A stretch of DNA of 64,000 bases. Source: a virus. Lineage: Duplodnaviria; Heunggongvirae; Uroviricota; Caudoviricetes. Position 1 is the first letter of the stretch, and each line of letters starts with the position of its first letter. The notes beneath the pieces are model-generated. The model made no database searches and was not told where the DNA came from. It was given only the letters and a program-made list of their open reading frames with translations. The DNA is taken from the IMG/VR virus record IMGVR_UViG_2675903433_000022; one strand, given 5' to 3'. Positions 5,849 to 63,960 of this stretch are shown piece by piece. The translations under genes were made by a program, and so were the position numbers.

Positions 5849-5868
5849 ATAAGTAAGTGATTACTTAG
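5849..5868. promoter_or_regulatory. palindromic motif site ATAAGTAAGTGATTACTTAG
   Basis: TAAGTAA / TTACTTA inverted arms in divergent region between helicase and ParB-like operon. Confidence 0.4.
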
Positions 5869-6566
5869 TGGATTGTAGCAATAAAATGGATGTAAAAATC
5901 ACGATTTTGCAGGTTGATGTTGCCAACCTTCGCCCGAATACCTGGAACACCAATTCGGTTGGTGCGCAGAATTTTGAAAAACTGAAAGGTTCTATCGAAA
6001 AATTGGGCTTTTTTAAGCCAATTTTGGCTCGTGAACTTGAAGATGGATTTTTTGAAATCCTCGGCGGCGAACATCGCTGGCGTGCTGCTATTGAGCAAGG
6101 AATTTCAACGGTTCCGGTGCTTTCTGTGGGCAAAATTAGCGATGTCGTAGCTAAACAGATGTCACTGGTGGACAACGAGCGATACGGTGAAGACGACCAA
6201 ATCGCATTGCAACGCTTCATTGAAGAAATTCAGTCAGAACTTGACTATCAACTGTCTGAAATCGCCCCGTATGACGACGAAATCTCGATGGTTTTAGCAA
6301 AAGAGGCGGCAATCGACCTTGAAGCACTGGAGGCGTTGTCTCGTGGTAGTGATGAGCCTGTCGATACCGACAAACGAGAGAAAACCGAACGTGTGGGGGC
6401 GGAACATCAGACCATGCGCTTCAAAGTAACTTTCGATGCGTCAGATCGTGTTGCAGAAACCATAAAAAACATCATCAAAGAGCAGGCTATTAACACCGGT
6501 AATGAAATGGAGAACGCTGGTGAGGCTCTGGTGTGGCTGGTCGACTACTACAAGGAGCGTATGTAA
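5868..6566 (+). CDS. ParB/Srx-like N-terminal domain protein
   Basis: ParB box GGEHRWRAA; acidic C-terminal half; true start may be ATG at 5886. Confidence 0.65.
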   Translation: MDCSNKMDVKITILQVDVANLRPNTWNTNSVGAQNFEKLKGSIEKLGFFKPILARELEDGFFEILGGEHRWRAAIEQGISTVPVLSVGKISDVVAKQMSLVDNERYGEDDQIALQRFIEEIQSELDYQLSEIAPYDDEISMVLAKEAAIDLEALEALSRGSDEPVDTDKREKTERVGAEHQTMRFKVTFDASDRVAETIKNIIKEQAINTGNEMENAGEALVWLVDYYKERM

Positions 6567-7234
6567 TGACCAAAAAGTTTGAAATCGTATATCGCGACCC
6601 GGCAGATCTTATTCCCTATGAGATGAATGCCAAAAAGCATGATGAACAGCAGATCCGAGATCTGGCCGCAGCCATTAAAAAGCGCGGATTTGACCAGCCA
6701 ATTACGGTCGATAAGAACGACGTAATTATTACTGGCCACGGCCGCCGTGAGGCTGCAATTTTTGCTGGACTTGAGCGCGTGCCGGTTATTGTTCGCGATG
6801 ATCTCAGTGATGACGAGGTTCGTGCGAAGCGCCTTGAAGATAACCGACTTGCCAGCATTGATTACGATGCAATTAAGCTACAGAAAGAGCTTGAGTCGCT
6901 TGTTCTGGACGATATCGAGGTTTTCGGCTTTGAAGAGCGTGAGTTGAATGTTCTCGTTGGCAGTATGACAGAAGAAATGGACACCGACTCGCTAGTTATC
7001 GATCTTGGCGAAGAAACTAAACGACAGAAGGATGAACACACCGAGATCAGTCGCGAAGTTGCAGCGGAAGAAGTACGTGTTGTCGACGTATTGGGCTTTA
7101 AAACGCTTCCTGCTGGCTCTGCCATTGTTGTTGGTGATTTGCTTGCCCACATGGAAGAAATGACGGGAGAGAGCGGGGTAGACGCATTTGTGGCATATGC
7201 GGAGAAGATCTCTTCCGGGGAGATGGCTGCATGA
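6566..7234 (+). CDS. ParB/Srx-like N-terminal domain protein (second copy)
   Basis: ParB box GHGRREAA; start overlaps previous stop (TAATG). Confidence 0.65.
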   Translation: MTKKFEIVYRDPADLIPYEMNAKKHDEQQIRDLAAAIKKRGFDQPITVDKNDVIITGHGRREAAIFAGLERVPVIVRDDLSDDEVRAKRLEDNRLASIDYDAIKLQKELESLVLDDIEVFGFEERELNVLVGSMTEEMDTDSLVIDLGEETKRQKDEHTEISREVAAEEVRVVDVLGFKTLPAGSAIVVGDLLAHMEEMTGESGVDAFVAYAEKISSGEMAA

Positions 7235-7896
7235 GCAAATACATCATCAACGTATCGTTTCAGACTCGCGTAAATAAAACCACGCGCACATTGGAAATCG
7301 CTGAGTCGTTCGGGCTTGGCCTGGACGAAAAAGAGTGGACGCTTTACGACAATCTGGAGCTGGAAGTGAAGCAGGGCGATGTGGTGTACATCACCGGCCA
7401 ATCCGGTTCCGGCAAATCCGTTGTGCTGCGCGAGTTGCAACGACAGATGAAGGATGAAGGGCTGTCTGTAGCCTCCATCGATGATTTTACCTTCGATAAT
7501 GAGGTTAACGTCATCGATCAGTTGGGCAAAACGACCAGTGATGCGCTTGGGTTGTTATCTATGGCTGGTCTGAACGATGCATATCTGTTTGTTCGCAAGC
7601 CTTCTGAAATGTCAGACGGCCAGAAATATCGTCTCAAGATTGCCAAACTGATTGAGTCAGGCGCTAAAGTGTGGGCTGCTGACGAGTTCGGCGCTGTTCT
7701 CGACCGTGTAACCGCTCAGGTTGTGGCGTCTAACCTCCAGCGTGCCGCTCGAAAGGTTGGTGCGACGGTAATGGTGGCGACGACTCACGAAGACCTGAAG
7801 AACGCGCTGCGCCCGGATATGCAGATCACCAAGCACTACAAAGAACGCGTGAAGGTGGAATATCACAATGGTAGTCATGATGAGGTCCATTCATGA
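7231..7896 (+). CDS. ABC-type ATPase domain protein (221 aa)
   Basis: Walker A GQSGSGKS, signature-like SDGQKYR, Walker B VWAADEFGA, H-loop TTHED; ATGA overlap with upstream gene. Confidence 0.6.
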   Translation: MSKYIINVSFQTRVNKTTRTLEIAESFGLGLDEKEWTLYDNLELEVKQGDVVYITGQSGSGKSVVLRELQRQMKDEGLSVASIDDFTFDNEVNVIDQLGKTTSDALGLLSMAGLNDAYLFVRKPSEMSDGQKYRLKIAKLIESGAKVWAADEFGAVLDRVTAQVVASNLQRAARKVGATVMVATTHEDLKNALRPDMQITKHYKERVKVEYHNGSHDEVHS

Positions 7897-8783
7897 CGGA
7901 CATCATCATTAAACGCTACCGCCCTGAAGAGTTTCCGCGTCATCTGGACTTTCTGGAGCGAATGACTGTTACAAAGGGAACTGTAGAGGACTGGCACGCT
8001 CTTAAGTCGCTTCACTACAAAACAGACGGCAAACCTTTCGCGCCAACTTACTATCGCTGCGAACTTGATGACCGTCTGGTGGGCGTCGTGGTTATGGCTT
8101 ACCCGAAACTACTGTTGGCACCTCGCCACCGCATGTTTCCTAAGTTGAAACCAACCACTAATACCACCGTGGCTAACCAGTACTGGGGTCGGTACGTGAA
8201 TAACAACTTTGCGGTGATCAGTCGCTCAGTTGTGGATACTCAGTATCGTGGCGTAGGCGTCTCTTATCGAATGATTAACCTGGTTAGCAGGATGCATGAC
8301 CGGCCAATCATTGAGATCCAGTCCTCGATGAGCAAATACAATCCCTTCGCCATGAAAGCAGGGTTTAAGTTCATCCGCCCTGAGCGACCGAAGAGCTATG
8401 AAAGTGCACTGCGTGTATTCCAGCGCCATTTCCGTTCCGACCCGGGTGATAACGAGGCGATCGTCAAAGAGTTGTTCGCAATGAGCGAGTCTCGTCGTCG
8501 CCGTGCACTGCGTGATCTGGTGGCGGACTACCACAAGAACAGTTCCCTGGCAAAAGCTGGGCGGAATCGTGGCACTACGATTCAGGACATTGCCGACAGT
8601 CTGGTGGACGAGGCCAGCATTGTGAAGCTGCTCAAGGACATTCACAACCTGAGCTTTACGTCTCCGTTGTATGGTGTGTACCGAAACCCTGACTTTGGCC
8701 GTCGACTGCCTGACACGCTGCCACTGCTGGCATTCGACAAACAACCTTTGGATAAACCGTTAGAAATTGCTTTACCGGCATAA
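7893..8783 (+). CDS. GNAT-fold acetyltransferase-like protein with C-terminal extension
   Basis: Motif resembling acetyl-CoA binding (VVDTQYRGVGVSYRM) and NPFAMKAGFKFI; ATGA overlap with upstream gene. Confidence 0.4.
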   Translation: MTDIIIKRYRPEEFPRHLDFLERMTVTKGTVEDWHALKSLHYKTDGKPFAPTYYRCELDDRLVGVVVMAYPKLLLAPRHRMFPKLKPTTNTTVANQYWGRYVNNNFAVISRSVVDTQYRGVGVSYRMINLVSRMHDRPIIEIQSSMSKYNPFAMKAGFKFIRPERPKSYESALRVFQRHFRSDPGDNEAIVKELFAMSESRRRRALRDLVADYHKNSSLAKAGRNRGTTIQDIADSLVDEASIVKLLKDIHNLSFTSPLYGVYRNPDFGRRLPDTLPLLAFDKQPLDKPLEIALPA

Positions 8784-8792
8784 GGATTTGCC

Positions 8793-9059
8793 ATGACGTT
8801 AACCGACAAACAAAAGGACATCATCAAAACGCTCAATCTCGGTTATGAGCGAGGTCATCTACTTGATCTGGACGAATTGCTTGAAGTTTTGCCGTACAAG
8901 ACAACCAAGCAAAGTATCCAGTTCTCAATTCGCGCTCTGATAAAAAAGGGGCTGGTGGAGAAAGGGCATACGCGCCAACGCAGTGACAATCGCTATCACC
9001 GCCGGACTCTTGGGTTAACCACTTTAGGTCGAGCCAAAGCGAAGTTACTGGTGATGTAA
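8793..9059 (+). CDS. small basic protein, possible winged-helix (88 aa)
   Basis: ORF track; 9 bp after previous gene; basic C-terminus. Confidence 0.35.
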   Translation: MTLTDKQKDIIKTLNLGYERGHLLDLDELLEVLPYKTTKQSIQFSIRALIKKGLVEKGHTRQRSDNRYHRRTLGLTTLGRAKAKLLVM

Positions 9060-9083
9060 TCGGTCTGGGAGCTTATTTAAAGA

Positions 9084-9138
9084 CCTGCTTCTGTATATAT
9101 AAATAATAAGTAACTTATTAAATATATACGGAAGCAGG
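9084..9138. repeat. 55-bp near-perfect palindrome, copy 1
   Basis: CCTGCTTCTGTATATATAAATAATAAGT | AACTTATTAAATATATACGGAAGCAGG; a second copy at 42132..42186 is its reverse complement. Confidence 0.8.
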
Positions 9139-9254
9139 CTTCGTAAGACATGCCAGACCTAATTAAACACCCCAGAAAACAAGTTGGTTAGCAGATGCAG
9201 TAAACAAGTTGTTTTAGAGCGCATGGACGCGCTCTGTGTGTTTTAGAGGGATCT

Positions 9255-9887
9255 ATGACGGTCGAAAAAGACGAGGTAAAAACTCGCCTGACACCAGCGG
9301 AGTGGGCCGAAGCTGAAGCCAAATGGACGTCAGGCGAATATACACTCTCAAAGCTGGAGGAAGAGTACGGCATTCGTCGTGAAACACTCTCCAGACATTT
9401 CAAAAAGCGAGGATTAGAGAAAGGCGCGGACTCTGTTGGGAAGATGGTTCGTGAGTCTCTTAAATCTGACGCAGAGCTTCGCGCTAAAGCCCGTGCGGAA
9501 AAGATAGAAGAACGTCGTACACGTTATGACGGCTGGGCGTATGCGTTGGGGCAGATGGTGATGGTCGAAGTCACTACGGCCAAACGTGAGGGTAAGCCTT
9601 TAGGGGCGATTGAGGATTCTCTCAAGAGCTTACAGAGAGCCAGTAATACCCTTGCAAAATGCTTTGAAGTTTCGTCCAAAGCATTGGGCATGGATCATGC
9701 GGAAAATGACGAGGAAGAAATTCCGAACCTGGTATTTGGTGAGCTTACGCCTTCCCAGGTGGCGAAATTACGTCAGGAAGACGACGAGCCTGAAATCATC
9801 GATGACGAATTGCTTGAGACGTTGGAAGAAGAAGCTCTAAGCGAATTTGATGCGACAGATGATGGAATTGAAGGGGAGGACGAATAA
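9255..9887 (+). CDS. putative terminase small subunit
   Basis: Immediately upstream of and overlapping the terminase large subunit; N-terminal HTH-like region, acidic C-terminus. Confidence 0.45.
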   Translation: MTVEKDEVKTRLTPAEWAEAEAKWTSGEYTLSKLEEEYGIRRETLSRHFKKRGLEKGADSVGKMVRESLKSDAELRAKARAEKIEERRTRYDGWAYALGQMVMVEVTTAKREGKPLGAIEDSLKSLQRASNTLAKCFEVSSKALGMDHAENDEEEIPNLVFGELTPSQVAKLRQEDDEPEIIDDELLETLEEEALSEFDATDDGIEGEDE

Positions 9888-40001: not shown

Positions 40002-40026
40002 AGGCGACTTCTGTCGCCTTTTTTGT
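40002..40026 (+). terminator. rho-independent terminator
   Basis: AGGCGAC-ttct-GTCGCCT followed by TTTTTTG. Confidence 0.65.
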
Positions 40027-40841: not shown

Positions 40842-41200
40842 TGTCCATGAAAATGGGTGACCTAGCAAAGCGCAAAGAGCCTGATGCACCGGCTAAGAAC
40901 ACAACTCCTTTGCGCCAACCAGTCAGACCACAGGGACGCCCGACTCGTGGCAAAGAGAAAATTAAGAGCCGCACGATGTCACTGGAGGACGAATACTTCG
41001 AACTGCTGGAGATGATGAAGTTCATCCCTCGTTTCGAGAAATTCACCCGTTCAGACGTGATTCGCGCAGCCATTTTCCATCTGGCAGAGAAGTCACCGCA
41101 GGAAATCGAGGACATCGTGAAACTTAACGAGGCGATCACAGCTGCCGATGTCACGATGCGTACCGATGAAATCAAACGAGAGTTGATGAAAAAAGGTTAA
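40841..41200 (+). CDS. small partition partner protein (ParG/ParB-like)
   Basis: 119 aa, overlaps parA stop; basic disordered N-terminus. Confidence 0.45.
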   Translation: MSMKMGDLAKRKEPDAPAKNTTPLRQPVRPQGRPTRGKEKIKSRTMSLEDEYFELLEMMKFIPRFEKFTRSDVIRAAIFHLAEKSPQEIEDIVKLNEAITAADVTMRTDEIKRELMKKG

Positions 41201-41252: not shown

Positions 41253-42020
41253 TTATGCCGCGCTAACACTATGTTCAGTCCTAACCACCCCAACCTTCAC
41301 AAAAGGGCTACCGTAGCTTGGTGGCTTCTTGATTAATTTGCCTACATACAGTTTTCTAATATGCTCATCGGCTATTCTGCCAACAAATTCATAACGTTTT
41401 GTGTCGGGGCCAAGAGCTATATCCCTTGTAAAGTACTGCTGAGAACCGGCTTTGACCCAGCATTCAATCCGATAAACTTCCATTATCAGCCCACCATATG
41501 TAGCGTAGGCATATTTGAGATTCTCGTCTCTTGGAACCTTTGCCCATACGCCACGCGTAGCTTCATATAATGCCAGAGCGGACATTCCTGACTTGTAGGT
41601 GCTGTTTAGCAGGAAGGCAAGACCGGCGTGCTCAGGAGCAATTTCAGTTTCCTCTTGCAGCACTAAGTGATGGTAGGCGTCCAGTGATATTCTGCCCATC
41701 ATGGAACCACTTCCTCGTACCTTATTCGTAAGCTCTCCGACCCCCATAAGGTCGATGCATGTCGCCTCAACAAGTTTGGCTGTGGTTTCATCCATACCAT
41801 GACGAAGTATATCTATGCCTAATTTTTTATTAGCCAAAAGTTCTTTGATCCGCATGGATTTGGGAGAGTCATCGGGATACTTGATGTGATCGAGACAACG
41901 AGTCGATTTGCCTTTTCCTATGTAAAACGGTCTTTTCATCTTGTCTTCTGTATCATAGAGACAGTAAACATAGTATTTAGCCTTATCCAATGATCTCGCG
42001 TATACCGATAAATCGTCCAT
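41253..42020 (-). CDS. GIY-YIG nuclease domain protein with uncharacterised C-terminal domain
   Basis: N-terminal YYVYCLYD ... PFYIGKGKSTRCLDH (GIY-YIG-like); about 170-aa C-terminal region unknown. Confidence 0.5.
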   Translation of the reverse strand: MDDLSVYARSLDKAKYYVYCLYDTEDKMKRPFYIGKGKSTRCLDHIKYPDDSPKSMRIKELLANKKLGIDILRHGMDETTAKLVEATCIDLMGVGELTNKVRGSGSMMGRISLDAYHHLVLQEETEIAPEHAGLAFLLNSTYKSGMSALALYEATRGVWAKVPRDENLKYAYATYGGLIMEVYRIECWVKAGSQQYFTRDIALGPDTKRYEFVGRIADEHIRKLYVGKLIKKPPSYGSPFVKVGVVRTEHSVSAA

Positions 42021-42131
42021 TATTGCATCTCTTAGCTACTGACTAATGCGTTCTATTTTACACATAAGTTTTTAATCAATTTAACAGGCTCAAAGTGTAG
42101 AGCTTCTGGGCGTCTAAGACGACAAGTTATG

Positions 42132-42186
42132 CCTGCTTCCGTATATATAAATAATAAGTAACTTATTAAATATATACAGAAGCAGG
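42132..42186. repeat. 55-bp near-perfect palindrome, copy 2
   Basis: Reverse complement of the element at 9084..9138. Confidence 0.8.
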
Positions 42187-42269
42187 TCTTTTAAAAGACA
42201 CCACCAGAACAACTCCCTTCCGTTTCCACTTCCAAAAACTGCCACCAGTCGCTATCATCCGCTCATTGT

Positions 42270-42293: not shown

Positions 42294-43043
42294 GTGAGCC
42301 ACATGAGCCAAATCTTTTTCGATACCATCGACAACGACCAGTACGACTTCATGACAGAGTGGAATACCGCTGTTATGGACAAGTGGGTCGCTGAAAACAT
42401 TGGTTTGTCGCGCTGTAAAGACGAGGCTGAACTCTTCGAGACGAAGTGGTTTGATTATCGCGACATGCATCCTCTCATGGCCACCTGTCTTTTTACGGAG
42501 GCATACAAACGTCAGTACTCAAATATCATGCTGACGCACGGTCGCGAACACTTTGAAACAGCTCCGTTCACCACCGGGTTAAAACGCCTGCCTTATCAGG
42601 AGTTGTCGACTGCCAATAAAACGTCGCTATGGAAAGCACGCCAGTTTGCTGACCGCTATTGCTGCTCATACGACTACTTTATCTCCACCGTTCTTTCCGC
42701 AGCTGCACGACGACTGTGGGACAAGCTGCCGCGTCCGCAGCATTTGTGGCAGCCAGAACTGATTGAGATATTCGAAGATAAATTAGCCAGACGCGCAACA
42801 ACCCGTCTGGATGACTCTCTGGTTAGCTTTAAGCATATGGGAGACATGCAGTTCAACCCGATTCAGGAAAGCTATTTTGAGTGGATTCTTGAGCGTTTAC
42901 GCGCCATCCCCCGCAGCAAGCGCATACGCGCAATTTTCTCCGCTATCTGGCTAATGGAAATCGTTCCAGAGCGCCTTATTTCCGCCCACTTTCCAGAAGA
43001 ACTGGAAGAAGCACGGCGGTTTATTGATCCCCTATCTAATTAA
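42294..43043 (+). CDS. hypothetical protein (249 aa), first gene of replication module
   Basis: ORF track; positional. Confidence 0.45.
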   Translation: MSHMSQIFFDTIDNDQYDFMTEWNTAVMDKWVAENIGLSRCKDEAELFETKWFDYRDMHPLMATCLFTEAYKRQYSNIMLTHGREHFETAPFTTGLKRLPYQELSTANKTSLWKARQFADRYCCSYDYFISTVLSAAARRLWDKLPRPQHLWQPELIEIFEDKLARRATTRLDDSLVSFKHMGDMQFNPIQESYFEWILERLRAIPRSKRIRAIFSAIWLMEIVPERLISAHFPEELEEARRFIDPLSN

Positions 43044-49997: not shown

Positions 49998-50072
49998 GAT
50001 GGTGTAGCTCAGCGGTAGAGCAGTTGGCTGTTAACCAACTGGTCGGTGGTTCGAATCCACCCACCATCGCCA
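49998..50072 (+). tRNA. tRNA-Asn (anticodon GTT)
   Basis: Cloverleaf folded by hand: acceptor GATGGTG/CACCATC, D-stem GCTC/GAGC, anticodon loop CTGTTAA, T-loop GGTGG-TTCGAAT-CCACC, then G-CCA. Confidence 0.75.
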
Positions 50073-50074
50073 AT

Positions 50075-50150
50075 GCCGGTTTAGCTCAGTTGGTAGAGCA
50101 CCTGCCTTGTAAGCAGGATGTCAGCGGTTCGAGTCCGTTAACCGGCACCA
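50075..50150 (+). tRNA. tRNA-Thr (anticodon TGT)
   Basis: Acceptor GCCGGTT/AACCGGC, D-arm GCTC-AGTTGGTA-GAGC, anticodon loop CTTGTAA, T-arm AGCGG-TTCGAGT-CCGTT, A-CCA. Confidence 0.75.
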
Positions 50151-51484: not shown

Positions 51485-52588
51485 ATGAAAAATAGCTTTG
51501 ACAGAGCACGCGCTGCGGAGAACACCTCAAAAGAGGCGATTGAGTATCTCGAAAGAGCATCTCAAATGCAGGCCGTTATGATCTCGCAGGTTAGCAATGA
51601 CATGAGATTCTCGGACGCATTCATGTTATTCACTCGCTTATCTCTGCTGATAACCAGACGTCGGCCAGAGATCGCTGTTCATTGTATTTTGATACATGTT
51701 TTGCCGCACATTGCCGATGTAAAAGTAAGTGATATTAATAGGTTCATGGTGAACCAACTGGTCAACCCACTAATACTGGATGGCAAAATTGTTATGGGCC
51801 GCCGCGTTTTCTCTCTGATGAAGCAGTTCCTTAGCTGGTGCGCCTTCCAGGGGATGATCGACGTGTCACCGTTAAACGATATGTCACTTAACAAAGTTGC
51901 CGGTGGCGCAAAGCCCACACCTCGCGAGCGGAAGCTAACCGACGCAGAGGTATGGGTGTTCTGGAATATATGGGACTACTTCAATGTGTGTGCTGGTACA
52001 AAATGGGCGGCCAGGCTATGTCTTGTATCCGCAAGACGACCTGACGAAGTACTGCGGGCTAAAAAAAGTGAGTTCAATCTTAAGCGTGGGGTTTGGAATC
52101 AAGGCAAGAGGAACAAATCTGCCCGTGAGCATTCTCTGCCTTTAAGCTCATTAATGCGCACATGTATTGAAGAGTTGTTCGAATATGGTAAAGACAGCCA
52201 GTGGCTCGTGCCTTCGAATAAAAAAATCGGGAAAGACCTTCCTATGTCTAAAGTGGCAATAGCCCAGGCATTACGTCGTATTCTGGAACGACCAGAACTG
52301 ATGGAGCTTGAGCCATTTACACCCCGAGATTTGCGCCGTACTGCGCGTAGTTACTTCCCAGCATTAGGCATAAGCCAGGAGGTATCACGTAAAATCATGA
52401 ACCACAGTCTTGAGGGGATAGATCGGGTCTACGACCGGCACGATTATATGGACGAGATGCGAGACGCCTTAGAAAGTTTCTCGACGTACATCGCATCAAT
52501 CGTAGAGCAACCGGATTTAGACGAAATTGACCACAAATTTAAGGGAGATCGTCTATCAACAGAGCTTATTCGTGTAAATTTTTCATAG
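51485..52588 (+). CDS. int: tyrosine recombinase / integrase
   Basis: C-terminal catalytic residues in RDLRRTARS ... HSLEGIDRVYDRHDY context (R, H, R, Y). Confidence 0.75.
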   Translation: MKNSFDRARAAENTSKEAIEYLERASQMQAVMISQVSNDMRFSDAFMLFTRLSLLITRRRPEIAVHCILIHVLPHIADVKVSDINRFMVNQLVNPLILDGKIVMGRRVFSLMKQFLSWCAFQGMIDVSPLNDMSLNKVAGGAKPTPRERKLTDAEVWVFWNIWDYFNVCAGTKWAARLCLVSARRPDEVLRAKKSEFNLKRGVWNQGKRNKSAREHSLPLSSLMRTCIEELFEYGKDSQWLVPSNKKIGKDLPMSKVAIAQALRRILERPELMELEPFTPRDLRRTARSYFPALGISQEVSRKIMNHSLEGIDRVYDRHDYMDEMRDALESFSTYIASIVEQPDLDEIDHKFKGDRLSTELIRVNFS

Positions 52589-62746: not shown

Positions 62747-63634
62747 TCAGGCTGCCAGATCATTATTTCCGATGGAAGCATAATAAGCTTTTTCTGCTTC
62801 TGCCGGAGGAATATGGCCCAGCCTTTCCAGCAATCGTCGATTGTTATACCAGTCCACCCACGTTAGTGTGGCCAGTTCCACTTCTGTCCGGTTTTTCCAG
62901 CTCTTACGGTGTATTACCTCCGCTTTGTAAAGACCATTGATGCTCTCAGCCATCGCGTTGTCATACGAGTCGCCAGTACTCCCTGTTGATGCCAGTAATC
63001 CGGCTTCCTTAAGCCGCTGCGTGTAGGCCAGCGATACATACTGAGAACCTTTATCACTGTGATGGATTGTGCCGGACGGCCGACGGGCCCACAACGCCTG
63101 CTCCAGTGCATCCAGCACGAATGTTGTTTCCATGGATGATGAGACCTGCCATCCCACGATGTATCCGGCGAACACATCAATGATGAACGCCACATAAACG
63201 AAGCCCTGCCATGTGCTTACCCAGGTAAAATCAGCCACCCACAACTGGTCTGGACGTTCTGCCACGAACTGACGGTTTACGCGGTCGCATGCGGCAACGG
63301 CTTTCCGGCTGACGGTAGTGCGGACCTTTTTACCCCGGAGAACACCGGCAAGTCCCATAACTGCCATGAGACGTGCCACAGTGCATCTGGCCACTCTGAT
63401 ACCTTCCCGTAACAACTGACGCCAGACTTTACGCACACCGTATACCTGGTGATTTTCATCGTATACGCGCTGTATCTCTTTCTTCAGCCAGTCATCGTGC
63501 TGCGCACGGGCACTGCGTTTATCCGGATGATGTCGCTGTTGCTGACAATGGTAATACGTTGACGGGGCAATATGCAGTTCGCTGCATACCGGTCCGACCC
63601 CGTACTGCTCACGCAGCTTATCCAGCAGTGGCAT
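62747..63634 (-). CDS. IS3-family transposase OrfB (DDE integrase domain)
   Basis: 295-aa ORF with DDE-transposase-like segments (WVADFTW ... DKGSQY ... DNAMAES). Confidence 0.8.
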   Translation of the reverse strand: MPLLDKLREQYGVGPVCSELHIAPSTYYHCQQQRHHPDKRSARAQHDDWLKKEIQRVYDENHQVYGVRKVWRQLLREGIRVARCTVARLMAVMGLAGVLRGKKVRTTVSRKAVAACDRVNRQFVAERPDQLWVADFTWVSTWQGFVYVAFIIDVFAGYIVGWQVSSSMETTFVLDALEQALWARRPSGTIHHSDKGSQYVSLAYTQRLKEAGLLASTGSTGDSYDNAMAESINGLYKAEVIHRKSWKNRTEVELATLTWVDWYNNRRLLERLGHIPPAEAEKAYYASIGNNDLAA

Positions 63635-63960
63635 TATTTTTTCCAGAGGCGGTCGAACTCCGCCTTCGCAAAATAAGCGGAAGCCTGGCGAAGGATATCG
63701 TTACTGCGGCGCAGTTCACGATTTTCACGTTCCAGCTCTTTCAGACGCTGACGTTCAGCGGTGGTGAGTCCACCATCACCACTCCCGGTATCCCGCTCAT
63801 GCTGACGAACCCACACACGCAGAGTCTCTGGTGTACAGCCAATCTTTGGGGCAATGGAACAAATTGCCGCCCATTGTGAGTCATATTCGCCCTGACTTTC
63901 CAGAACCATACGAACTGCCCGTTGACGGACCTCGGGGGAAAAACGTGTATTTTTAGTCAT
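63634..63960 (-). CDS. IS3-family transposase OrfA (HTH)
   Basis: 108 aa with HTH and leucine-zipper-like C-terminus; overlaps orfB start as expected for -1 frameshift fusion. Confidence 0.8.

What the first reader, a model, noticed from the sequence alone, without database searches (positions are those of the whole stretch)
9084..9138. Two copies of a 55-bp near-perfect palindrome, 33 kb apart and in inverted orientation
CCTGCTTCTGTATATATAAATAATAAGTAACTTATTAAATATATACGGAAGCAGG at 9084..9138 and its reverse complement at 42132..42186; each copy is itself palindromic except for one A/G position. Flanking sequence is also partly related (GGTCTGG ... CCAGACC around copy 1). Copy 1 lies just upstream of the terminase small-subunit gene, copy 2 just upstream of the replication module; together they bracket the morphogenesis, lysis and partition block. 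Candidate roles: high-affinity operator pair, bidirectional terminator or promoter, packaging or replication-origin element, or recombination sites.
Basis: seen in the sequence. Interest (0 to 1): 0.6.

Follow-up and report, generated by a model that had tools for sequence, protein, structure and literature searches.

The report
Paired hairpin terminators in a phage-plasmid
Two nearly identical 55-bp hairpin-forming sequences bracket the virion, lysis and partition genes of an SSU5-type phage-plasmid. They are most likely transcription stop and insulator signals kept alike by gene conversion, so they are fairly ordinary, although this repeat family has not been described.

Summary
Both copies exist at the stated coordinates and cannot be chance. 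The description is partly wrong. Each site has 17-bp inverted arms around an asymmetric 21-bp centre. The copies are direct repeats (53/55 identical); only one Y/R arm position is swapped.

The window is an SSU5-like phage-plasmid, found in about 4.7% of complete E. coli genomes. Both sites are ancient and syntenic across the E. coli, Salmonella and Klebsiella lineages. Site 1 alone was also found in Kluyvera and Yersinia. Orientation and spacing (30-36 kb) never change. No inversion or deletion product was found.

Site 2 is always followed by a T-tract: 28 of 28 variants. Where the upstream gene is co-directional, site 2 starts 22-24 nt after its stop codon. Most of its arm mismatches are T·G on the coding strand. 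That makes it a Rho-independent terminator. Site 1 lacks the T-tract in most lineages.

Shared lineage-specific changes show concerted evolution. Some relatives carry the hairpin interior flipped, which explains the swapped arm position.

Best reading: paralogous terminator or insulator hairpins at module boundaries (confidence about 0.45). A shared DNA-binding factor (0.25) or a packaging role (0.1) remain possible. Formal covariation is not significant.

The parts
9084..9138 (+). Site 1: the 55-bp hairpin element. Left arm 9084-9100, asymmetric centre 9101-9121, right arm 9122-9138. Arm position 9/47 is T,G.
   Evidence: RNA fold -30.5 kcal/mol, z = -7.7. DNA fold -15.2 kcal/mol. Conserved upstream of terS in 19 unique variants from 74 loci.
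42132..42186 (+). Site 2: a direct-repeat copy of site 1 (53/55). Left arm 42132-42148, centre 42149-42169, right arm 42170-42186. Arm position 9/47 is C,A, a minority variant.
   Evidence: RNA fold -26.2 kcal/mol on + and -27.3 kcal/mol on -. 28 unique variants in relatives.
42187..42192 (+). T-tract (TCTTTT) immediately 3' of the site 2 hairpin.
   Evidence: All 28 unique site-2 variants have at least 4 T in the first 8 nt (mean 5.2; the window's T fraction of 0.25 predicts about 2).
9062..9071 (.). Outer inverted repeat, left half (GGTCTGGGAG), flanking site 1. It starts 2 nt after the stop codon of the upstream gene.
   Evidence: Conserved in the SSU5, Klebsiella and site-3 copies.
9153..9159 (.). 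Outer inverted repeat, right half (CCAGACC), flanking site 1.
   Evidence: Site-3 copies carry CTCCCAGAC at the same place.
42104..42110 (.). Outer inverted repeat, left half at site 2 (TTCTGGG).
   Evidence: Relatives with the ancestral-type left flank have GGTCTGGCAG or TTCTGGCAG.
42204..42210 (.). Outer inverted repeat, right half at site 2 (CCAGAAC).
8793..9059 (+). 88-aa gene whose stop codon lies 24 nt before site 1. PHROG 900, with a faint winged-helix resemblance. It is the last gene of the upstream + strand operon.
9255..9887 (+). Small terminase subunit (PHROG 867, annotated terS in Cyrano). First gene of the virion block.
41253..42020 (-). GIY-YIG-domain gene on the minus strand, immediately left of site 2. 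It is lineage-specific cargo. Other lineages have different + strand genes ending 22-24 nt before the site.
   Evidence: The homology break falls at the left edge of the site.
42294..43043 (+). 249-aa protein (PHROG 2500, function unknown). First gene of the DnaB-helicase and primase block.

Best explanation
The two sites are paralogous copies of a repeated hairpin element that marks module boundaries in SSU5-type phage-plasmids. They act mainly on the + strand transcript.

Site 2 is a Rho-independent terminator. It has a 17-bp G+C-clamped stem, a small internal loop, a 7-bp inner stem, and then UCUUUU. It stops transcription coming from the virion, lysis, partition and cargo block before the replication operon, which I infer has its own promoter.

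Site 1 is the same hairpin placed 24 nt after the stop codon of the preceding operon and ahead of the late-operon leader. In most lineages it has no U-tract. It is therefore at best a weak terminator, a pause site or a 3'-end-protecting hairpin that insulates the late genes.

The copies stay alike through gene conversion. Recombination between the two arms occasionally flips the interior. Two such flips with different crossover points, or recombination between arm variants, would give the window's odd site 2: swapped arm position with an unflipped centre.

Shown: the anatomy, conservation, synteny, T-tract, wobble bias, flips and concerted evolution. Inferred: that termination actually occurs, the role of site 1, and the gene-conversion and flip mechanisms.
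For: 1. T-tract. All 28 unique site-2 variants have at least 4 T in the 8 nt after the hairpin, and 24 of 28 have at least 5. The tail is kept even though the sequence beyond it diverges.

2. Position. The hairpin starts 22-24 nt after the stop codon of a co-directional gene. This holds at site 1 in the window and at site 2 in SSU5, Cyrano and pJN2-26, where the upstream genes are unrelated to one another.

3. Strand bias of arm mismatches at site 2. There are 31 T·G pairs on the top strand, 2 C·A and 4 others. Positions 5 and 9 each show the series C·G, T·G, T·A.

4. T-tract strand tracks gene direction.
- In one of the two extra 'site 3' copies (L042), the T-run is on the minus strand, where both flanking genes lie. 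L034 has only a weak one.
- In the diverged Klebsiella lineage, site 1 carries a strong T-tract.
- In that lineage site 2 is absent where the upstream gene is divergent (L236). Where upstream genes are co-directional (L237) there is a canonical terminator plus palindrome remnants.

5. Whole-interior flips at site 2 (L081, L116) keep the flanks and the T-tail. The function therefore tolerates either orientation, as a hairpin would.

6. Both strands fold far better than shuffles, z about -7 to -9.
Against: 1. Site 1 lacks a U-tract in the main lineages: 1 of 19 variants has at least 4 T. It therefore fails a defining terminator feature.

2. Formal covariation is not significant. 94.2% of cells pair, but 255 of 500 shuffles do as well, and only 2 pairs change on both sides.

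3. Site 1 has uncompensated changes at position 6 (A·A, G·A) and position 8 (C·A).

4. Arms and centre (AAGT-N-ACTT) are conserved as sequence while the adjacent intergenic DNA has diverged. The two copies share lineage-specific changes. An ordinary terminator needs neither, and ordinary short terminators of unrelated sequence occur elsewhere in the window, for example at 40002-40019.

5. In this window the gene left of site 2 is on the minus strand. Its C·A mismatch weakens the + strand hairpin.

6. No transcript data were available.
Confidence: 0.45

Rival explanations
1. The sites are sequence-specific DNA targets of one factor encoded by the phage-plasmid. Candidates are an operator, an insulator or a centromere-like site. 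The factor would bind the symmetric arms and the central AAGT-N-ACTT, and would coordinate the late and replication modules.
For: - Arms and centre are conserved as sequence across the E. coli, Salmonella and Klebsiella lineages (both sites) and in Kluyvera and Yersinia (site 1), while the flanks diverge.
- Concerted evolution. SSU5 shares ACTAAGT at both of its sites. The diverged Klebsiella lineage shares the derived right arm ATATATAGGAGCCAGG at both.
- The element is a composite of about 110 bp with an outer inverted repeat.
- A third copy exists in some relatives.
- The lytic Pseudomonas phage nickie has its own pair of similar palindromes at the same two boundaries; 2 of 500 shuffles reach the observed score.
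- Flips preserve the symmetric arms, so binding would survive them.
Against: - The outer half-sites are about 47 bp apart, which is far for a simple dimeric repressor.
- No candidate binder was identified. The adjacent 88-aa protein also occurs in nickie, which lacks this palindrome.
- Site 2 is dispensable in one lineage.
- This idea does not explain the invariant T-tail or the top-strand wobble bias.
- The conserved downstream block that I take to include the replication-operon promoter persists without the palindrome.
Confidence: 0.25
2. Site 1 is the packaging signal or physical genome end (cos, pac or a terminal-repeat boundary) recognised by the terminase encoded just downstream. Site 2 is a non-functional or auxiliary paralogue.
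For: - The linear GenBank records of the SSU5 virion genome and of Cyrano both open inside site 1, at the boundary between centre and right arm (...ACTTATTA|AATATATACGG).
- The site lies 116 nt upstream of terS.
- Symmetric arms around an asymmetric centre resemble a cosN-type nicking site (from general knowledge of lambda cos).
- A distant relative, Nican01, was called 'DTR (long)' by PhageTerm (PMC11256456).
Against: - The SSU5 break falls exactly where SSU5's own site 1 and site 2 stop being alike. That is what an assembler's repeat-boundary break would give.
- Cyrano's start, one base from SSU5's, looks copied from SSU5 (inference).
- TerL is Terminase_6N type. Its relatives are T5-like, Jersey-like and P74-26 terminases, not lambda, HK97 or P2 cos terminases.
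- Nickie-type phages share terS, TerL and the synteny but lack this palindrome.
- There are two to three copies per genome.
- The IMG/VR contigs I placed do not end at site 1, though some draft contigs do break inside or next to a site.
- A 33-kb terminal repeat bounded by the sites would need about 141 kb in a capsid of about 76 nm (PMC9928086).
Confidence: 0.1
3. The sites are crossover sites for site-specific recombination. The enzyme would be the tyrosine integrase at 51485-52588 or another recombinase. The outcome would be inversion or excision of the 33-kb block, or multimer resolution.
For: - The arm-spacer-arm architecture.
- A tyrosine recombinase gene is present.
- The left edge of site 2 is a mosaic junction with at least 9 different left flanks.
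Against: - The copies are direct repeats, so inversion is not expected.
- Orientation and 30-36 kb spacing are identical in all relatives.
- The predicted deletion junction is absent from 250 plasmids and 257 genomes. Such deletants would lose the partition genes, so this is weak evidence.
- 17-bp arms with a 21-bp spacer do not fit tyrosine-recombinase core sites, which have 6-8 bp spacers (general knowledge).
- The sites are 9 and 42 kb from the integrase gene.
Confidence: 0.04
4. Site 2, alone or with site 1, is a replication-origin element or a priming or unwinding hairpin for the adjacent helicase-primase module.
For: - An A+T-rich interior clamped by G+C.
- Site 2 lies directly upstream of the 249-aa, DnaB-like and primase genes.
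- The element encodes T4-like recombination and replication proteins.
Against: - Site 2 is missing in one lineage that keeps the replication genes and the conserved TTCC-repeat block.
- The plasmid RepA is elsewhere.
- An identical copy sits at terS, where an origin has no obvious role.
- This idea does not explain the T-tail.
Confidence: 0.05

Closest known systems
Rho-independent (intrinsic) terminators of phage operons, such as lambda tR' or T7 T-phi (general knowledge)
   Same: - A G+C-clamped RNA hairpin directly followed by a U-tract (site 2).
- It lies about 23 nt after a stop codon and ahead of the next operon's presumed promoter region.
   Different: - The hairpin is unusually long: 17 + 7 bp with an internal loop.
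- It is conserved as sequence and repeated two or three times per genome.
- One copy (site 1) lacks the U-tract.
RNase III processing hairpins of T7 and the lambda sib site (general knowledge)
   Same: - Several similar intergenic hairpins, about two helical turns long with an internal loop.
- They sit at gene-block boundaries within co-directional transcription.
- This could explain site 1, which has no U-tract.
   Different: No evidence of cleavage. The stem is mostly A-U inside. This was not tested here.
Dispersed centromere palindromes (sopC-like) of the linear phage-plasmid N15 (general knowledge)
   Same: Short palindromes scattered at several places in a phage-plasmid genome, including the late region, all bound by one partition protein.
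   Different: - The N15 sites are short perfect palindromes.
- Here the site is 55 bp with an asymmetric centre and a T-tail.
- The partition system here is a small ParA type whose centromere is unknown.
Lambda cosN and other cohesive-end sites (general knowledge)
   Same: - Two-fold symmetric elements around an asymmetric core.
- It lies just upstream of the small terminase gene.
- The SSU5 record opens at the arm/centre boundary.
   Different: - The terminase belongs to a different class.
- There are multiple copies.
- The site is absent from relatives with the same terminase.
- The record break is explained by a repeat boundary.
Hairpin-associated small inversions in chloroplast non-coding DNA (general knowledge)
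   Same: The sequence between short inverted repeats flips while the flanks stay fixed. This gives 'inverted loop' variants among close relatives, as in L081 and L116.
   Different: A different system. It is only an analogy for the flip mechanism.

Membership tests
Rho-independent terminator | A stable G+C-rich RNA hairpin on the transcribed strand. | tested here: met
   -30.5 kcal/mol (site 1) and -26.2 kcal/mol (site 2) on the + strand, z about -7.5.
Rho-independent terminator | A U-rich tract immediately 3' of the stem. | tested here: met
   Site 2: TCTTTT in the window. All 28 unique variants have at least 4 T of 8.
Rho-independent terminator | A U-rich tract immediately 3' of the stem (site 1). 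| tested here: not met
   Site 1: CTTCGTAA in the window. Only 1 of 19 unique variants has at least 4 T of 8. It is met only in the diverged Klebsiella lineage.
Rho-independent terminator | Lies downstream of a co-directional transcription unit. | tested here: inconclusive
   Met at site 1: 24 nt after the stop at 9059. Met at site 2 in SSU5, Cyrano and pJN2-26: 22-24 nt after a stop. In this window the gene next to site 2 is on the minus strand, and the nearest + strand genes end at 41200.
Rho-independent terminator | RNA 3' ends form at the site in vivo or in vitro. | not testable with these tools
   No transcript data were available.
Conserved structured RNA (covariation-supported helix) | Statistically significant compensatory changes. 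| tested here: not met
   2 pairs change on both sides; 316 of 500 shuffles do as well. Percent paired equals the shuffle value. No Rfam family matches.
cos site / physical genome terminus | Virion DNA ends map to the site. | tested here: inconclusive
   The SSU5 and Cyrano records open inside site 1. The break coincides with the point where SSU5 sites 1 and 2 diverge. No read data were available.
cos site / physical genome terminus | The terminase belongs to a cos-type class. | tested here: not met
   TerL matches Terminase_6N and Terminase_3. Its relatives are T5-like, Jersey-like and P74-26 terminases.
Tyrosine-recombinase core site (lox / FRT / dif type) | Inverted arms of about 11-13 bp around a 6-8 bp spacer. 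| tested here: not met
   17-bp arms and a 21-bp centre.
Site-specific inversion or excision system | Recombinant configurations exist among relatives. | tested here: not met
   No inversion in 6 contigs or in the four reference genomes checked: SSU5, Cyrano, PhiR41_1 and pJN2-26. No deletion junction in 250 plasmids or 257 genomes.
Protelomerase target (telRL type) | Perfect dyad symmetry at the cleavage centre, and a linear hairpin-ended replicon. | tested here: not met
   The centre is asymmetric. Relatives are circular plasmids. No protelomerase appears in the Cyrano annotation.
Palindromic operator of a dimeric repressor | Symmetric half-sites at dimer spacing that overlap a promoter. | tested here: inconclusive
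   The inner AAGT-N-ACTT fits dimer spacing, but the outer arms are about 47 bp apart. No sigma-70-like promoter overlaps either site. TATAAATA is not enriched.

The most novel reading that the evidence does not exclude
The repeated composite of about 110 bp (outer inverted repeat, 55-bp hairpin and central AAGT-N-ACTT) is a sequence-specific cis-element read by one factor encoded by the phage-plasmid. It would couple the two major lytic modules, packaging/morphogenesis and replication. Possible forms are a shared antitermination or processing signal, an insulator or operator, or a packaging-related site. An equivalent pair in the lytic nickie-type phages would make it an ancient feature of this siphovirus group of about 110 kb.
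Probability: 0.25. Interest if true: 0.6.

Novelty: new member of a known kind. Interest (0 to 1): 0.3.

Why it matters
SSU5-type phage-plasmids sit in about 5% of complete E. coli genomes. They are common in Klebsiella, Salmonella and Enterobacter plasmids. The literature retrieved describes them as carriers of resistance genes. Their regulation is essentially unknown.

A conserved pair of boundary elements around the virion, lysis and partition block gives three practical things:
- Landmarks for annotating these elements.
- An explanation of why assemblies, and probably the SSU5 reference record, break at this spot.
- A marker for the right edge of a hypervariable cargo hotspot.

If the elements only terminate transcription, the finding is useful but ordinary. 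If one factor reads both, it would be a first handle on how these plasmids keep lytic modules silent or coordinated.

Tried and rejected
- **Inverted orientation and inversion of the 33-kb block.** Rejected: the copies are direct repeats and the orientation is constant.
- **Deletion by recombination between the copies.** The chimeric junction is absent.
- **Known RNA family.** No Rfam match at either site.
- **Sigma-70 promoter inside or next to the sites.** None found by the consensus scan.
- **T4-type late promoter (TATAAATA at the left junction).** Only 4 hits in 64 kb, and 9 of 100 shuffles reach that count. No gp55-like factor is annotated.
- **33-kb direct terminal repeat bounded by the sites.** Rejected on capsid capacity.
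- **Protelomerase site.** The centre is asymmetric and the replicons are circular.
- **Nican01 termini as a guide.** Its record simply starts at TerL, so it is uninformative.
- **Aeromonas plasmid.** The shared 60-bp segment in its two gaps looks like a promoter or leader, not the same palindrome. I did not use it.
- **Literature.** Searches for SSU5 with cos or PhageTerm, for the sequence itself, and for pHCM2 palindromes found nothing relevant. The SSU5 genome note and a 2026 heteroresistance preprint were not retrievable.
- **Structure prediction of the 249-aa and 88-aa proteins.** Not attempted; I judged it unlikely to be decisive.

Full report
**1. Observation**

The quoted 55-mer is at 9084-9138. 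A second copy is at 42132-42186. No match occurs in 100 dinucleotide-preserving shuffles.

The tool finds copy 2 on the same strand with 2 mismatches. In reverse-complement alignment there are 17 mismatches. Each copy differs from its own reverse complement at 19 of 55 positions. The site is therefore not a near-perfect palindrome.

The true anatomy has three parts:
- Arms of 17 bp: CCTGCTTCYGTATATAT and ATATATACRGAAGCAGG.
- An asymmetric 21-bp centre: AAATAATAAGTAACTTATTAA.
- Inside the centre, a 7-bp inner palindrome, AATAAGT-A-ACTTATT, offset by one base from the outer dyad.

The two copies are direct repeats. Only arm position 9/47 differs: T,G at site 1 and C,A at site 2. That swap made the copies look inverted. 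The flanking GGTCTGG(GAG) and CCAGACC around copy 1 are real, at 9062-9071 and 9153-9159.

**2. What the window is**

The region is 98-99.6% identical to Escherichia phage-plasmids CMS-2020a, PhiR41_1 and Cyrano (pLF82). It is about 85% identical to Salmonella phage SSU5 and about 79% to Klebsiella relatives.
- Site 1 lies between an 88-aa gene (8793-9059) and terS (9255-9887).
- Site 2 lies between a minus-strand GIY-YIG gene (41253-42020) and a 249-aa gene (42294-43043). A DnaB-like helicase and a primase follow.

The element occurs in 257 of 5426 complete E. coli genomes, always on plasmids.

**3. Conservation**

An exact arm-pattern scan found 59 IMG/VR loci plus Kluyvera and Yersinia pestis contigs and one MAG. 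I oriented each site by its asymmetric centre. Every site 1 and every site 2 then has the same polarity relative to its downstream gene.

Among the exact-pattern hits, 18 of 21 site-2 copies are T,G. They are identical to the commonest site-1 form. The window's C,A is a minority variant, shared with PhiR41_1 and one contig.

Site 2 is also present in SSU5, Klebsiella pJN2-26 and Cyrano, with diverged arms or centres that my pattern had missed. Searching through the downstream proteins gave 19 unique site-1 and 28 unique site-2 variants.

Some relatives carry a third copy, with the same outer inverted repeat GGTCTGGGAG...CTCCCAGAC. The repeated unit is therefore a composite of about 110 bp.

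In six contigs that hold both sites, the orientation is the same and the spacing is 30-36 kb. The same holds in SSU5, Cyrano, PhiR41_1 and pJN2-26. A synthetic junction of the site-1 left flank and the site-2 right flank is absent from 250 plasmids and 257 genomes. There is no sign of inversion or deletion.

**4. Evidence on mechanism**

*T-tract.* All 28 site-2 variants have at least 4 T in the 8 nt after the hairpin. The mean is 5.2, and the window's T fraction of 0.25 predicts about 2. Only 1 of 19 site-1 variants reaches 4 T.

*Position.* The hairpin starts 22-24 nt after the stop codon of a co-directional gene. This is so at site 1, and at site 2 in SSU5, Cyrano and pJN2-26, although those upstream genes are unrelated to each other.

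*Cargo boundary.* The left flank of site 2 is hypervariable, with at least 9 different sequences. The right flank is constant. Site 2 therefore marks the right edge of a cargo hotspot. The window's GIY-YIG gene is one such cargo.

*Wobble bias.* At site 2 the non-Watson-Crick arm pairs are 31 T·G on the top strand, 2 C·A and 4 others. Positions 5 and 9 each show C·G, T·G and T·A.

*Limits of that evidence.* The formal pair count is not significant. 94.2% of cells pair, 255 of 500 shuffles do as well, and only two pairs change on both sides. Support for an RNA helix therefore rests on the wobble bias and is only suggestive. Site 1 also has uncompensated changes at positions 6 and 8.

*Gene direction.*
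- One of the two third copies (L042) has its T-run on the minus strand, where its flanking genes lie. The other (L034) has only a weak one.
- In a diverged Klebsiella lineage (249-aa protein 53-56% identical), site 2 is missing where the upstream gene is divergent.
- Where the upstream genes are co-directional, that lineage has a canonical terminator plus palindrome remnants.
- In that lineage site 1 has changed in both arms and in the inner palindrome (GAAG-AA-CTTC). It is followed by a strong T-tract.

*Flips.* L081 and L116 carry the whole interior of site 2 inverted between unchanged flanks. The palindrome therefore flips, and the function tolerates it. Two flips with different crossover points, or recombination between arm variants, would give the window's site 2. 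This step is inference.

**5. Evidence for something more than a terminator**

- Arms and the central AAGT-N-ACTT are conserved as sequence while the adjacent intergenic DNA diverges.
- The two copies share lineage-specific changes in SSU5 and in the diverged Klebsiella lineage.
- Unrelated ordinary terminators exist elsewhere in the window, for example at 40002-40019.
- The lytic Pseudomonas phage nickie shares the synteny and lacks this palindrome. It has its own pair of long, mutually similar palindromes at the same two boundaries; 2 of 500 shuffles reach the observed score.

Gene conversion can explain the concerted evolution. The element encodes RecA/UvsX-, UvsY-, gp32-, SbcCD- and RuvC-like proteins. 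A shared trans-acting factor remains a serious rival.

**6. Packaging**

The linear SSU5 and Cyrano records open inside site 1. This is the only evidence for a genome terminus, and several points weigh against it:
- The break (...ACTTATTA|AATATATAC) is exactly where SSU5's site 1 and site 2 stop matching; site 2 continues |TTATTTATAC. An assembler's repeat-boundary break would look like this.
- Cyrano's start, one base from SSU5's, looks copied from SSU5 (inference).
- TerL belongs to the Terminase_6N class, with T5-like, Jersey-like and P74-26 relatives.
- Nickie lacks the palindrome.
- The site is multi-copy.

Nican01, called 'DTR (long)' by PhageTerm (PMC11256456), has a record that simply starts at TerL. 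No paper in the library describes SSU5-type termini or this sequence.

**7. Other candidates**

- A tyrosine integrase and an HTH repressor lie at 51.5-53.0 kb. The site geometry does not fit a tyrosine-recombinase core site, and no recombination products exist.
- A protelomerase site is excluded by the asymmetric centre and the circular replicons.
- No sigma-70-like promoter overlaps the sites.
- TATAAATA at the left junction is not enriched.

**8. Verdict**

The most likely reading is a family of paralogous terminator-type hairpins at module boundaries:
- Site 2 is a canonical intrinsic terminator.
- Site 1 is a U-tract-poor paralogue that insulates the late operon.
- The copies are homogenised by gene conversion and occasionally flipped.

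Confidence is about 0.45. Rivals:
- Shared DNA-binding site: 0.25.
- Packaging signal: 0.1.
- Replication origin: 0.05.
- Recombination site: 0.04.

This is a new member of a known kind. It is of modest interest unless a shared factor or a terminus is demonstrated.

Noticed in passing
window 9177-9246: Between site 1 and terS lie two direct repeats: AAACAAGTTGGTTAG (9177-9191) and AAACAAGTTGTTTTAG (9202-9217). A terminator-like hairpin follows at 9215-9236, then TGTGTTTTAG, ending 8 nt before the terS ATG (9255). Both features are conserved in SSU5 and Klebsiella. Lytic phage nickie has ACAAGTTGTTAA and a different-sequence hairpin plus TATTTTT at the same place. This suggests a late-operon leader controlled by antitermination.
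   Followed up: partly
window 41253-42131 (left of site 2): The left flank of site 2 is a cargo hotspot. Among 28 variants there are at least 9 unrelated left flanks, including the GIY-YIG gene here, DUF2971 in SSU5 and CYRAN_30 in Cyrano. The right flank is constant. The GIY-YIG gene (PF22945) might be a free-standing homing-type nuclease.
   Followed up: partly
window 42215-42258: A conserved block, CCCTTCCGTTTCCACTTCCAAAAA, has three TTCC repeats with 6-nt spacing. A TATCAT lies 17 nt after TTCCAA. The block persists in the diverged Klebsiella lineage that lacks the palindrome (L236). It may be the replication-operon promoter or an iteron-like site.
   Followed up: no
L233:1700-1760 and L239:1030-1100 (Pseudomonas phage nickie): Lytic nickie has long palindromes upstream of both terS and the homologue of the 249-aa gene. 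They share CTTTCCCT.TTC..TTAACTACT (local score 26 against a shuffle mean of 17.4; 2 of 500 shuffles reach it). Paired boundary palindromes may therefore be ancient in this phage group.
   Followed up: partly
L081, L116 (site 2 of relatives); also L087, L103: Two kinds of instability occur in the hairpin interior:
- Whole-interior flips between fixed flanks.
- TA-repeat slippage that shifts the centre by 2 nt while total length stays about 55.
   Followed up: partly
SSU5 record NC_018843 ends (L005:1, L006:2500): The reference SSU5 genome is linearised exactly at the point where its two paralogous sites diverge. Draft contigs also break inside or next to the sites (L035, L078, L092; L171 near site 1). 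The repeat probably causes assembly breaks.
   Followed up: partly
window 63563-63679 (-) and 49998-50147 (+): An ALIL pseudoknot (the IS3-family frameshift signal; Rfam RF01497, 120 bits) indicates an IS element near the right end of the window. Two adjacent tRNA genes are also present.
   Followed up: no
window 5868-8783: Upstream of site 1 lie two ParB_N-domain proteins, an ABC-type ATPase and a 296-aa ATPase-like protein. The gene order up to terS, TerL and portal is conserved in the lytic nickie phages, at least from the ABC-type ATPase onward. This block is therefore probably not a plasmid partition system.
   Followed up: no
window 40002-40019: A canonical short bidirectional terminator (AGGCGACTTCTGTCGCCT with T-runs on both strands) lies between the 250-aa gene and parA. 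This genome therefore also uses ordinary terminators unrelated to the 55-bp element.
   Followed up: no
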